From the NCBI RefSeq assembly GCF_009914755.1, contig NC_060946.1: DNA of 64,000 bases; one strand, 5' to 3'. A model generated the notes under the pieces. That model saw nothing but the letters and a program-made list of their open reading frames with translations, had not been told where the DNA came from and made no database searches. This DNA is from the human T2T-CHM13v2.0 reference genome, Homo sapiens. Positions 4,683 through 64,000 of this stretch are shown here, piece after piece; position 1 is the first letter of the stretch, and every line of letters begins with the position of its first letter. The translations under genes were made by a program, and so were the position numbers.

Positions 4683-5699
4683 ATGGGGAAAAACAGAGCA
4701 GAAAAACCGGAAACTCTAAAACTCAGAGTGCCTCTCCTCCTCCAAAGGAATGCAGCTCCTCACCAGCAATGGAACAAAGCTGAACGGAGAATGACTTTGA
4801 CGAGTTGAGAGAGGAGGGCTTCAGAAGATCAAAGTACTCCGAGCTAGAGGAGGAAGTTCGAACCAATGACAAAGAAGTTAAAAACTTTGAATAAAAAAAT
4901 TAGACAAATGGATAACTAGAATAACCAATGCGGAGAAGTCCTTAAAGGACCTGATGGAGCTGAAAACCATGGCACGAGAACTTCATGACAAGTGCATAAG
5001 CCTCAGTAACCGATGTGATCAACTGGAAGAAAGGGTATCAGCGATGGAAGATGAAATGAATGAAATGAAGCATGAAGAGAAGTTTAGAGAGAAAAGAATA
5101 AAAAAAAATGAACAAAGCTTCCAAGAAATATGGGACTATGTCAAAAGACAAAATCTACGTCTATTTGGTTTACCTGAAAGTGACGGGGAGAATGGAAACA
5201 AGTTGGAAAACACTCTGCAGGATATTATCCAGGAGAACTTCCCCAATCTAGCAAGGCAGGCCAACATACAAATTCAGGAAATACAGAGAATGCCACAAAG
5301 ATACTCCTCGAGAAGCACAACTCCAAGACACATAATTGTCAGATTCACCAAAGTTGAAATGAAGGAAAAAATTTTAAGGAAGCCAGAAAGAAAGGTCGGG
5401 TTACCCACAAAAGGAAGCCCATCAGACTAACTGCTGATCTCTCCACAGAAACTCTACAAGTCAGAAGAGAGTAGGGGCCAATATTCAACAATCTTAAAGG
5501 AAAGAATTTTCAACCCAGAATTTCATATCCAGCCAAACTAAGCTTCATGAGTGAAGGAGAAATAATATACTCCACAGACAAGCAAATGCTGAGAGACTTT
5601 GTCACCACCAGGCCTGTCCTAAAAGAGCTCCTGAAGGAAGCACTAAACATGGAAAGGAACAACTGGTACCAGCCACTGTAAAAACATGCCAAATTGTAA
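4683..5699 (+). pseudogene. L1 ORF1p, disrupted
   Basis: atggggaaaaacag start with frameshifts and stops; fragment 4954-5430 (EIWDYVKR..RYSSR..TPRHIIVRFTKVEMKEK). Confidence 0.92.
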
Positions 5700-5762: not shown

Positions 5763-9575
<3,813 letters not shown>

Positions 9576-48529: not shown

Positions 48530-48656
48530 GCCTTTACAATCAGCTATCATCTAAATTACTTTTAATGGAAAGGATTCTGACAAGTTCTCTTAAATATGGT
48601 TTCAGATAACTTTGGGGATCATACCATTGGACTAGGAAAATCTTCCAGGACTCTAA

Positions 48657-48740
48657 AAAGCTGAATGAGAATTTCTAATTGAAATCAAGCAAAACACAAA
48701 AAACTGAATGAGAATTGCTATTTGAAATCAAGCAGAACAA
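48657..48740. repeat. 43-bp tandem duplication
   Basis: ctgaatgagaatt.cta.ttgaaatcaagca.aaca at 48661 and 48704. Confidence 0.85.
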
Positions 48741-61610: not shown

Positions 61611-61826
61611 GACAGGTGTACCTAATAAAAATATGCTTAGTGACTTGGGATAAACCAATAGTTGTTCAAAAGTGATGGAGAGCCGTGAAAGAGAGATAGC
61701 GGTAAATAGTTACAATAACACAATTTTCCTGCACCTGTCGAGGATTTCCCCCAAAAAACGCAGAATGTGGGATGCACCTAAGGCATATGAAAGAGAGAGG
61801 GCAGAAGGAGTAAGAGAGAAATAGGA

Positions 61827-61936
61827 GGAAGGAAGGAAGGAAGGAAGGAAGGAAGGAAGGAAGGAAGGAAGGAAAGAAGGAAGGTAGGACGGAAGGAAGG
61901 AAGGAAGGAAGGAAGGAAAGAAGGACGAAAGGAAGG
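61827..61936 (+). repeat. (GGAA)n microsatellite
   Basis: 12 perfect units at 61827-61874 and 7 perfect units at 61891-61918. Confidence 0.97.
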
Positions 61937-61989
61937 AGAAAACACCAGTGTTACTAAAACCCCCCAAAAAGTGGTTTCCCCCTGTGGGT

Positions 61990-62325
61990 AAGCCTACAAT
62001 GTGGATGAATCTTGAAAATATTGTGCTACGTGTTATGTCAGTCATAGCAGCTCACCTATTGTGCAATTCCGTTTATAGGAAATGTCCACAATATGGAAAT
62101 CTATGCATATGGGATTGATCGCACTAGGTAGTTGCTACCTAGGGCTGAGGGTCAGGGAGAGGGTTTGAGACAGAATGAGGAGTGACTAATGTCTACAGGG
62201 TTTTTCTCTGGTCGGGGGTGATAAGACGTTCTACAATGGATTGCGAATTAAAATTGAATGTGCACAACCACAGGTATAGTAAAAGCCACTCAATTCATGA
62301 CGTTTAATGGGGGAATCTTATGTGG
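61990..62325 (+). mobile_element. Old L1M 3' region
   Basis: tggatgaatcttgaaaatattgtgcta...attccgtttataggaaatgtcca...ggtgataagacgttcta. Confidence 0.7.
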
Positions 62326-62534
62326 CGCACTCTCATGGAGACCACGGCAGACATAGTGAGAGAGAAAAAGGTGAGTAAGTGTCTGAAACGGAGGCAGAAA
62401 CAGAGAGAATGAAAAGCCCTGTGAATGGAAGGGAGAGCGAAAAGGGAAAATGGTCCTATTTACAAATGACGGATGTGAAACTGGGGTTCACATCAACAGT
62501 GTCACTGCCAGGAAGGAGGGTCATGCTAGCCATG

Positions 62535-63998
62535 TCACCGGTAGTGTGGCCCGCAGGGACGCCGACCTGCTGGAGCGTCGTGCCAGCATGGGCTGTGGCA
62601 TCCACGTGGGCCAGCAGGAGGTTCCCGCTGCACAGCTGTGGGGTGAGGATAGACTGGGTGGTGATATCGGCCATTACAGGGGCCTCTTCTGCTGGCAAGA
62701 GTGTGACAGTAGCAAGTAGATGGACAGGCCTGTGTGTGAGGACGTAATGCAGGAGGGGCTCTTGTGCGGCTGGGTGTGGGGCCCTCACGGGAACCGTGGA
62801 GAAATGGCCAGGTAACTGCGTCATGTGGGCTGGTAGATTGGCCAGGGCTTCGAACTGAAGGACGATAACGGGGAGTAGCTGTCAGGCCCTGGGAGTGCCT
62901 GAGTGTAAGTGAAGATGGGTTTGGGGTCACTGAGGGATGCGTGGGAGCCATCCCTGTATAGGTACAGGTCGCAGGGAGATAGCCTCGTGAGGCCTGTGAG
63001 TGTCTAGGGTTGTCCTGGGTGCCTGGGGCTGACTGTGGCAGAAATCTGGGGAAGGCTGGAGAGAAGCTGGGAGACCCAGGAGAGTCCCTGAAGGCAGGGG
63101 GTGAAGAGGTGAAAGAAATGGGGGTGGGTTGCAGTAAGGTCCGTGAGTTTGTAGGTGATTCCTGGGTGCGGGAAGCTGACTCCAGGTGAAATCTGGAGAT
63201 GGTTGGAGAGTAGCTGAGAGAGACAGAAGAGTCCCTGAGGGTTGGGGGTGAGAACATGAGGGAGACGGGGGAGTAAGTCAGTGAAATTCGTGAGTTCGGT
63301 GGTGTATCGTGGGTGCCTGAAACTGACTCCAGCTGGAATCTAGAGAAGTTTTGAGAGTAGCTGAAAGAGACACAAGAGTCCCTGTGGGCTGAGGGCAAAG
63401 ACCTGAGAGAGACCAGGGAGGACCTCAGTGAAGTCTGTGAGTCTGTAGGTGATTCCGGAGTGTGGGAGGCTGACTCCCGCTGAAATGTGGGCGTGGTGGG
63501 AGAGTAGCTGGGACAGACAGGAGAGTCCCAGGGGGCTGGGGGTGAAGACATGAGAGAGAGTGGGGAGTAACTCAGTGAAATTGCTGAGTTGGTTGGTGAT
63601 ACCTGGGTGCCTGGAACTGACCCCCGCTGAAATCTGGGCATGGTTGGAGAGTAGCTGGGACACACAGGAGAGTCCCTGAGGGCTGGGGGTGAAGACATGA
63701 GAGAGACCGGGGAGTAACTGAGTGAAACTGGTGAGTTTGGTGGCGACTCCGGGGTGCGTGGAACTGACTCCAGCTGAAATGTGGGCGTGGTTGGAGAGTA
63801 GCTGGGACAGTCAGGAGAGTCCCTGAGGACTGGTGAAGACATGAGAGAGACTGGAGAGTAATTGAGTGAAATTGGTGAGTTTGGTGGTGATTCCTGGGTG
63901 CCTGGAACTGACTCCCGCTGAAGTGTGGGCGTGGTTGGAGAGTAGCTGGGACACACAGGAGAGTCCCTGAGGGTTGGAGATAAAGACGTGCTAGAGAC
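62535..63998 (-). CDS. Putative Pol II CTD-like heptad-repeat protein (5'-incomplete ORF; translation unproven)
   Basis: The 473-aa track ORF starts at a GTG, but the frame stays open to the window edge (VSSTSLSPTLRDSP before VCPSYSPTTP). 49-aa repeats with SYSPTTP/SYSPVSL; unique C-terminus; TGA at 62535-62537. Confidence 0.4.
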   Translation of the reverse strand, partial: VSSTSLSPTLRDSPVCPSYSPTTPTLQRESVPGTQESPPNSPISLNYSPVSLMSSPVLRDSPDCPSYSPTTPTFQLESVPRTPESPPNSPVSLSYSPVSLMSSPPALRDSPVCPSYSPTMPRFQRGSVPGTQVSPTNSAISLSYSPLSLMSSPPAPWDSPVCPSYSPTTPTFQRESASHTPESPTDSQTSLRSSLVSLRSLPSAHRDSCVSFSYSQNFSRFQLESVSGTHDTPPNSRISLTYSPVSLMFSPPTLRDSSVSLSYSPTISRFHLESASRTQESPTNSRTLLQPTPISFTSSPPAFRDSPGSPSFSPAFPRFLPQSAPGTQDNPRHSQASRGYLPATCTYTGMAPTHPSVTPNPSSLTLRHSQGLTATPRYRPSVRSPGQSTSPHDAVTWPFLHGSREGPTPSRTRAPPALRPHTQACPSTCYCHTLASRRGPCNGRYHHPVYPHPTAVQREPPAGPRGCHSPCWHDAPAGRRPCGPHYR

Positions 63999-64000
63999 TG
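62990..64000. repeat. 147-bp tandem satellite (ACRO1-type), about 7 units, running off the window
   Basis: Anchor gagtccc at 63082, 63229, 63376, 63523, 63670, 63817 and 63961 (spacings 147 x5, then 144); G-rich plus strand. Confidence 0.92.

What the first reader, a model, noticed from the sequence alone, without database searches (positions are those of the whole stretch)
63082..64000. The 147-bp unit is a 7 x 21-bp higher-order repeat of heptads
Seen: the consensus 49-aa unit parses as YSPTTPT / FQRESVP / GTQESPP / NSPVSLS / YSPVSLM / SSPPALR / DSPVCPS. Five of seven heptads keep Ser2-Pro3 in register, two keep Tyr1, and most keep Ser or Thr at position 5. Inference: the satellite grew from a 21-bp CTD-coding unit, possibly a retrocopied or duplicated POLR2A CTD exon or a convergent S/P repeat, which then amplified as a heptamer. 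147 bp also equals the nucleosome core length, an alternative non-coding reason for the period.
Basis: partly seen in the sequence, partly recalled or inferred. Interest (0 to 1): 0.7.

Follow-up and report, generated by a model that had tools for sequence, protein, structure and literature searches.

The report
Hidden gene inside ACRO1 satellite
A human "satellite" repeat long filed as non-coding is the repeated middle of an unbroken ~1,000-codon reading frame kept in over 100 copies on the acrocentric short arms and chromosome 3, likely an unannotated mammalian gene whose predicted protein resembles the tail of RNA polymerase II.

Summary
The 7 x 21-bp substructure is real (0 of 5000 shuffles). 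The repeat is the ACRO1 satellite, whose likeness to the Pol II CTD was published in 2020 (PMC7714431).

What that paper did not report: the CTD-like frame runs stop-free from an ATG through unique N-terminal sequence, both ACRO1 blocks and a unique C-terminus, 993 codons in all. 113 of 126 scored genomic copies keep a frame of 955 codons or more. Canonical units carry a GC box and TATA box upstream, and 172 copies carry a DUX4-motif context. Colinear database proteins exist in marmoset (67%), and homologues in rabbit and whales, against the published "primate-only" claim.

The heptads differ mostly at third codon positions. Neutral simulations almost never keep the frame open (0 of 900 runs for 800 codons).

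Against: dN/dS is about 1 among human copies, no protein or ribosome evidence was available, dispersed copies are often broken, and this copy lacks its promoter. Descent from POLR2A itself is not shown: no synonymous or flanking signal.

Verdict: likely a DUX4-type macrosatellite-borne gene family encoding a disordered CTD-like protein.

The parts
62535..64000 (-). 3' half of a 993-codon ATG-to-stop reading frame; stop codon at 62535-62537. The 5' half and the ATG lie beyond the window end (L021:4001-5516; see Noticed in passing)
   Evidence: longest of 5 stop-free frames of 200+ codons in the window
63013..64000 (-). Long ACRO1 block: 147/144-bp monomers, each 7 x 21 bp = 49-aa unit of 7 CTD-like heptads; continues past the window to L021:4568
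62538..63012 (-). Non-repeat C-terminal coding region, shared with marmoset, titi, rabbit and unnamed distant homologues
62703..62726 (-). CPSTCYCH Cys/His motif, kept in marmoset and titi models, rabbit (CPSSCYCH) and P0039
   Evidence: clustering beyond background only p=0.06
62303..62308 (-). ATTAAA, candidate poly(A) signal 226 nt after the stop (predicted, untested)
62159..64000 (.). Left arm (in-window part) of a 3.4-kb head-to-head inverted duplication; the right arm (L021:6670-10034) is a broken partner copy

Best explanation
ACRO1 is the tandem-repeat middle of an unbroken ~1,000-codon reading frame present in over 100 copies, likely a real multicopy gene whose predicted product is a disordered, Ser/Pro-rich mimic of the Pol II tail. 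Shown: frame, start, stop, copy number, upstream GC/TATA/DUX4-type motifs, homologous protein records in other mammals. Inferred history: a CTD-like 21-bp coding heptad expanded to a 49-codon unit before the primate-rabbit split; the unit then expanded in frame, and in apes the whole ~6.5-kb gene amplified into arrays, as DUX4 did in D4Z4. Arrays keep the frame while many dispersed copies decay. Inferred mechanism: DUX4 switches the arrays on in cleavage-stage embryos, and the protein (99 S/T-P sites, 17 YSP motifs) would be phosphorylated by CTD kinases and would compete for or scaffold CTD-binding factors during genome activation. Odds: coding origin with a selected frame about 0.8; translated in humans today about 0.55; acts as a CTD decoy or scaffold about 0.3. 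The window copy itself lacks its promoter and may be silent.
For: 993-codon ATG ORF across repeat and unique parts; stops per frame over this span are 0 against 10, 17, 91, 44, 45. 113 of 126 scored copies on C3, C13, C14, C15, C21, C22 have frames of 955+ codons; 234 ATG-context matches, control 1. Length changes among 29 array copies are 291, 144 or 3 nt, apart from one rearranged copy and one 2-nt end-of-alignment gap. Third-position excess among heptads, p=0.0027. 0 stops among 122 distinct monomer variants, 4.2 expected, P about 0.015; internal duplication stop-free in 1.5% of simulations. Marmoset model colinear from the first Met, 67% over 593 aa. Rabbit and whale models (named): rabbit C-terminal and gray-whale N-terminal unique regions score above all 300 shuffles; rabbit units are spaced 47-49 aa. 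Neutral two-lineage simulations stay open in 0 of 900 runs (800 codons) and 1 of 900 (300 codons), stops only. GC box at -380 and TATTTAAA at -345 in a canonical unit. Papers: ACRO1 RNA peaks at the 4-cell stage (PMC6545021), is DUX4-activated (PMC8990217), and ACRO1 DNA is hypomethylated in spermatogonia and sperm (PMC5832720).
Against: dN/dS is about 1 in all human comparisons: 0.84-1.46 between paralogues, 0.85-0.99 among monomers, 0.68-0.82 (p 0.05-0.20) in the old duplication. Motif clustering is not significant (p=0.06 and 0.44). The strand is stop-poor: consensus frames +1 and +2 hold only 1 and 0 stops. The short branch alone is weak: P(no stop) 0.017-0.087. Array copies are homogenised, so not independent, and ranks intact copies first. 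Database proteins are automatic models selected for being open. The marmoset model has a ~60-aa out-of-frame stretch; baboon and colobus models end at 282 and 291 aa, and the titi models lack the N-terminal part. The rabbit period is marginal (0.177 vs 95% shuffle bound 0.174). RefSeq annotates no gene here. No peptide, ribosome or full-length transcript data were seen. Boots et al. found no stable ACRO1 transcripts in HeLa and showed the RNA blocks elongation in cis.
Confidence: 0.6

Rival explanations
1. Relic gene, now a non-coding satellite. The sequence once coded, but human arrays are open only because they amplified recently from one intact, stop-poor copy; any function lies in the RNA, which binds Pol II and silences itself in cis (Boots et al. 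2020).
For: dN/dS about 1; near-identical array copies (99%); some copies on C2, C4, C13, C15, C19, C20 carry stops; published SELEX enrichment and reporter silencing; truncated Old World monkey models.
Against: The founder still had to stay open since the marmoset split (P(no stop) 0.002 at an assumed 6% branch). Subfamilies 93-96% identical in protein to this copy are also open. Length changes are in frame. The reporter work used HeLa and heterologous promoters.
Confidence: 0.27
2. Origin question, compatible with either reading above: the gene began as a retrocopy or duplicate of the POLR2A CTD exon rather than as a convergent S/P heptad repeat.
For: In-register match to POLR2A heptads; 22 of 49 residues match YSPTSPS, 23 of 49 in the paper; majority 21-mers share 13 of 21 bases; Ser2 and Ser5 use TCN and Ser7 AGY, the commonest classes in POLR2A; the monomer HMM scores true RPB1 CTDs at up to 24-30 bits, like rabbit units; heptad register runs on into the C-terminal region in distant homologues.
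Against: No synonymous excess (8 of 60); profile log-odds is negative (-37.9); no same-strand match to sequence 5' or 3' of the CTD exon; the CTD was chosen as target after seeing the likeness.
Confidence: 0.4
3. The 147-bp period was selected as a nucleosome-positioning satellite and the reading frame is incidental.
For: 147 bp equals the core length (recalled). A/T dinucleotides show 10.5-bp periodicity (1 of 2000 base shuffles), with G/C dinucleotides about 4 bp out of phase; codon-column shuffles reach it in 0.2%.
Against: All 20 POLR2A CTD windows show similar amplitude (2.2-3.0 vs 2.78), and synonymous recoding reproduces it in 17% of runs (6% with uniform codons). A head-to-tail 147 leaves no linker. 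Whale homologues use 20- and 63-codon periods. It does not explain the open unique flanks.
Confidence: 0.05

Closest known systems
ACRO1 satellite / ACRE / ACRO composite (PMC2588610; PMC7714431; 10.1101/2021.07.12.451456)
   Same: It is this element: 147-bp unit, long block plus spacer plus two-monomer block, ~6-kb unit on acrocentrics, chr3 and chr4; CTD likeness already reported.
   Different: The text read calls it a satellite or gene-free megasatellite, and primate-only (the non-primate search was default MegaBLAST). Here it lies inside a ~1,000-codon ORF with promoter motifs and rabbit and whale homologues.
D4Z4 / DUX4 macrosatellite gene
   Same: One long ORF per tandem unit, cleavage-stage expression, decayed dispersed copies on acrocentric short arms.
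   Different: DUX4 has folded homeodomains and proven protein. This product has no Pfam match, no confident fold and no protein evidence.
RNA polymerase II RPB1 CTD (PF05001, POLR2A)
   Same: Y-S-P-x-S/T-P heptads in register; automatic annotators name the homologues 'RPB1' or 'RPB1-like'.
   Different: No polymerase body; heptads degenerate (Y1 2 of 7, P6 3 of 7); no PF05001 hit at this locus.
ZNF768 N-terminal CTD-like heptads (name recalled; locus L020)
   Same: Non-polymerase human protein with CTD-like heptads, found by PF05001.
   Different: Single locus with C2H2 fingers; its heptad profile does not match ACRO1 (1176 of 2000 shuffles score as well).

Membership tests
ACRO1 / ACRE | 147-bp unit in 1.3-2.4-kb and ~256-bp blocks | tested here: met
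   Blocks of about 1.55 kb and 0.24 kb; definition
ACRO1 / ACRE | 7-15 monomers, 325-362-bp spacer, then two monomers | tested here: met
   10.3-10.5 copies; gap 350 bp between BLAST hits; definition
ACRO1 / ACRE | ~6-kb higher-order unit on acrocentrics, chr3, chr4 | tested here: met
   About 6.2-6.7-kb spacing on C3, C4, C13, C14, C15, C21, C22
ACRO1 / ACRE | Published Acro FISH primers match | tested here: met
   Both primers of PMC2588610 match exactly in L021, L030 and L056; ~1.2-kb product in canonical copies, same-strand in the window's inverted junction
ACRO1 / ACRE | Identity to the Repbase/Dfam ACRO1 consensus | not testable with these tools
   No repeat library held
RPB1 CTD (PF05001) | Pfam match above cut-off | tested here: not met
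   no match; one search lists only C17, C16 and C1 among 150 scored of 629 candidates
RPB1 CTD (PF05001) | Attached to a polymerase largest subunit | tested here: not met
   Whole ORF is S/P-rich with no family hit
RPB1 CTD (PF05001) | Phosphorylated by CDK7/CDK9 at Ser2/Ser5 | not testable with these tools
   Needs a kinase assay
POLR2A retrocopy | Shared synonymous codons or flanking/UTR homology | tested here: not met
   age may have erased both
Macrosatellite-encoded gene (D4Z4/DUX4 type) | One long ORF per tandem unit | tested here: met
   113 of 126 scored copies; C-terminal matches lie in frames of the same lengths
Macrosatellite-encoded gene (D4Z4/DUX4 type) | Promoter within the unit | tested here: inconclusive
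   GC box, TATTTAAA and donor-like site in the canonical unit; motifs only; absent from the window copy
Macrosatellite-encoded gene (D4Z4/DUX4 type) | ORF kept open across species | tested here: inconclusive
   Marmoset, rabbit and whale models plus unnamed contig ORFs are long and open; model DNA not seen, and Old World monkey models are truncated
Macrosatellite-encoded gene (D4Z4/DUX4 type) | Purifying selection on amino acids (dN/dS < 1) | tested here: not met
   About 1 among human copies; deep third-position excess is the exception. Lowers 'is a constrained gene', not 'is built like one'
Macrosatellite-encoded gene (D4Z4/DUX4 type) | Translated protein detected | not testable with these tools
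   No Ribo-seq or proteomics

The most novel reading that the evidence does not exclude
All five human acrocentric short arms and chromosome 3 carry more than 100 intact copies of an unannotated, DUX4-switched gene, older than the primate-whale split and next to a DUX gene in whales, that makes a free ~1,000-residue mimic of the Pol II CTD in cleavage-stage embryos and titrates CTD kinases and readers during genome activation.
Probability: 0.2. Interest if true: 0.95.

Novelty: new variant of a known kind. Interest (0 to 1): 0.78.

Why it matters
ACRO is reported as the repeat most specific to great-ape acrocentric chromosomes, rivalling rDNA, and the passages read give it no role (10.64898/2025.12.22.696095). 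If it is a gene, it would be among the highest-copy protein-coding families in the human genome, masked as satellite and missing from annotation. It would explain why ACRO1 RNA peaks at the 4-cell stage and responds to DUX4, add a candidate effector in genome activation, FSHD and cancers that derepress ACRO1, and give a natural free-standing CTD mimic. It can be tested at once by remapping existing embryo Ribo-seq, Iso-Seq and proteomics data.

Tried and rejected
Pfam found nothing meaningful for the window ORF, the full ORF, the C2 paralogue or four homologues. PDB sequence search of the whale model: 0 hits. AlphaFold on the 358-aa C2 paralogue with a 10-sequence alignment: mean pLDDT 40.8, pTM 0.12, no fold; consistent with disorder but the alignment is shallow, so no fold search was run. 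ESM Atlas: a 993-aa 'putative extensin-like' cluster (70 members, 0.96, low recognition, probably its own cluster) and an 'RPB1-like' cluster at 0.85; no usable hit for the short paralogue.

ZNF768-type heptads as donor: rejected. POLR2A flanks: one opposite-strand score of z 4.1 among 30 comparisons, read as chance. ACRO138 of the distal junction is a different repeat. Plasmodium ovale-labelled hits and most unnamed fragments are read as human contamination (inference; PMC6581058 lists ACRO1 among contaminants of prokaryotic assemblies) and were not counted as evidence. The 'spacer 332' line is arithmetic on a figure taken from the paper, not a measurement; 350 bp is used.

Only 3 dispersed paralogues (two C19, one C2) were read in full. 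Synteny of the ancestral locus and the C1, C4, C20 and distal C14/C22 copies were not examined at DNA level. PMC5703070 (primary DUX4-ACRO1 data, id recalled) was not held.

Full report
1. Observation. The window ends in a 147-bp array whose autocorrelation peaks at 147, 294 and then 21 and its multiples. The 21-bp sub-period beats every shuffle (0 of 5000, 0 of 2000, 0 of 5000; best-lag test 0 of 1000).

2. Identity. The array recurs at 99% in 6.3-6.6-kb units on C3, C15 and C22 (40 scored of 249 candidates). Block layout and published primers make it ACRO1 within the ACRE/ACRO composite. Boots et al. 2020 (PMC7714431) already aligned the translated unit to the CTD (23 of 49), noted the heptad nature and proposed derivation from CTD mRNA.

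3. What lies around it. Reading past the window, the same frame is stop-free for 1,021 codons, with an ATG at L021:5516 giving 993 aa. It covers a unique N-terminus, an old internal duplication, the short block, the long block and a unique C-terminus. The other five frames hold 10-91 stops. Of 126 scored copies (2,348 candidates), 113 have frames of 955+ codons and 13 are shorter, 389-755. The start context occurs 234 times. A canonical unit has a GC box at -380, TATTTAAA at -345 and a donor-like site at -199 (element names recalled). A DUX4-motif context occurs 172 times; the listed places lie about 860 bp upstream of ATG places, while the canonical copies L030 and L056 lack the exact motif. 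The window copy is half of a head-to-head pair: its promoter is lost at a junction 8 bp upstream of the ATG, and its partner keeps the promoter but is broken.

4. Relatives. A marmoset model is colinear from the first Met (67% over 593 aa), with 49-aa units and one ~60-aa out-of-frame stretch. Baboon and colobus models are truncated and titi models partial. A profile search names two more distant hits as rabbit and gray whale and adds Rice's whale (12 hits among 7,985 scored candidates; the rabbit and gray-whale sequences were in the query alignment, having been found by the single-sequence search at E 2e-26 and 6e-4). The rabbit C-terminus scores 172 (shuffle maximum 94) and the whale N-terminus 160 (maximum 101); the rabbit N-terminus and whale C-terminus are not significant. 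Unnamed P0039 matches both ends at about 45% with a single unit. Rabbit units are 47-49 aa apart, a marginal signal; whales expanded 20- and 63-aa units. This contradicts 'no non-primate homologue', which rested on default MegaBLAST.

5. Selection. For: heptads differ most at third positions (p=0.0027); 0 stops among 122 monomer variants against 4.2 expected. In 29 array copies, length changes are 291, 144 or 3 nt, leaving aside rearranged L052 and one end-of-alignment gap, with 1 stop among 215 distinct substitutions (top-scoring copies, and repeat misalignment inflates the count). Neutral simulations matched to the observed identities stay open in 0 of 900 and 1 of 900 runs. Against: dN/dS about 1 throughout, motif clustering not significant, a stop-poor strand, and ascertainment of open models. 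The pattern fits selection on an open frame and composition rather than on exact residues, as expected for a disordered region (no fold), but it also fits a recently relaxed gene.

6. Origin. ACRO1 matches POLR2A heptads (locus L011, found with PF05001; gene name recalled) in register beyond periodicity-preserving nulls, and does not match ZNF768-type heptads. There is no synonymous or flanking signal. Coding origin is supported; POLR2A descent is about 0.4. The nucleosome-like 10.5-bp signal is likely a by-product of heptad codons.

7. Likely working. Shown: frame, copies, motifs, homologue records. From papers: ACRO1 RNA rises in early embryos, is DUX4-activated, and ACRO1 RNA binds Pol II and blocks elongation in HeLa reporters. 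Inferred: DUX4-driven transcription, translation of a disordered protein of 23% Ser and 18% Pro, phosphorylation by CTD kinases and competition for CTD readers. Cis self-silencing by the RNA could be what keeps the gene off in somatic cells.

8. Novelty. Five searches aimed at the question listed no paper describing an ACRO1-spanning ORF or gene; searches added none. The library lacks most subscription papers, and not all hits were listed (28 of 35, 8 of 10). Automatic models exist in non-human annotation under the misleading name RPB1. Supplements of the two bioRxiv papers on composites and ape acrocentrics were not seen and could annotate coding content in ACRO.

9. What was read. PMC7714431: main-text parts 1-4 of 5, supplement part 1 of 3 and searched passages. 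Passages only: PMC2588610, 10.64898/2025.12.22.696095, 10.1101/2021.07.12.451456, PMC6545021, 10.64898/2025.12.22.696056, PMC3847771, PMC6581058, PMC5832720, PMC8990217, PMC3836709, PMC3616921, PMC8997349.

10. Verdict. Observation confirmed and CTD likeness known. The underlying element is likely an unrecognised macrosatellite-borne gene family. Interest 0.78.

Noticed in passing
L021:4001-5516 (-), just past the window end: Belongs to the finding but lies outside the window: rest of the long ACRO1 block (to 4568), ~350-bp spacer, two-monomer short block, N-terminal region with an internal ~197-codon duplication, and the ATG at 5516 with A at -3.
   Followed up: yes
L021:5823-5833 (-): TAATCCAATCA, a match to the DUX4 core motif, 317 bp upstream of the window copy's ATG; 0.02 expected per 10 kb; the same context occurs 172 times in the genome.
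   Followed up: partly
L021:6331-10034 (+): Head-to-head partner unit, 96.5% identical over 3.4 kb, with GC box and TATTTAAA but a broken frame (2 stops, 3 one-base indels); no further ACRO1 monomers in the next 30 kb.
   Followed up: yes
P0089 (gray whale model), last ~65 aa: The model's tail matches the 3.3-kb-spaced array at C4:193.43-193.53 Mb and many acrocentric copies, i.e. a DUX4-type C-terminal domain (D4Z4 name recalled). The model joins the ACRO-family exon to a DUX exon, suggesting the two genes are neighbours in whales; it may be a mis-joined model.
   Followed up: partly
L071:634-1710 (G000:C2:161.74 Mb): A solitary long-arm paralogue with a 1,905-nt in-frame deletion keeps an intact 358-aa ORF, its TATA promoter and both unique ends; a 98%-identical 361-aa protein (P0091) lies on an unnamed 264-Mb contig. 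A good single-copy target for expression tests.
   Followed up: partly
L070 and L072 (G000:C19:47.23 and 47.28 Mb): Two inverted copies 52 kb apart, about 7% diverged from the window copy and both broken; among the best-scoring matches to distant homologue P0039. Candidate ancestral locus; synteny not checked.
   Followed up: partly
G000:C15:100000-160000 and C21 distal copies: Some distal-array copies have longer open frames, 1,145-1,387 codons, probably more monomers still in frame.
   Followed up: no
L022:1170-3550 and 7259-8348: Sequence with several 200-316-codon open frames about 7-14 kb past the window; probably other acrocentric repeats.
   Followed up: no
window 61826-61937: (AGGA)n microsatellite of 28 units just 3' of the gene; PMC11060741 reports ETS fusions activating GGAA-rich pericentromeric repeats and mentions ACRO1 (search listing only).
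   Followed up: no
window 48655-48739: 43-bp tandem duplication, 2 copies at 90%.
   Followed up: no
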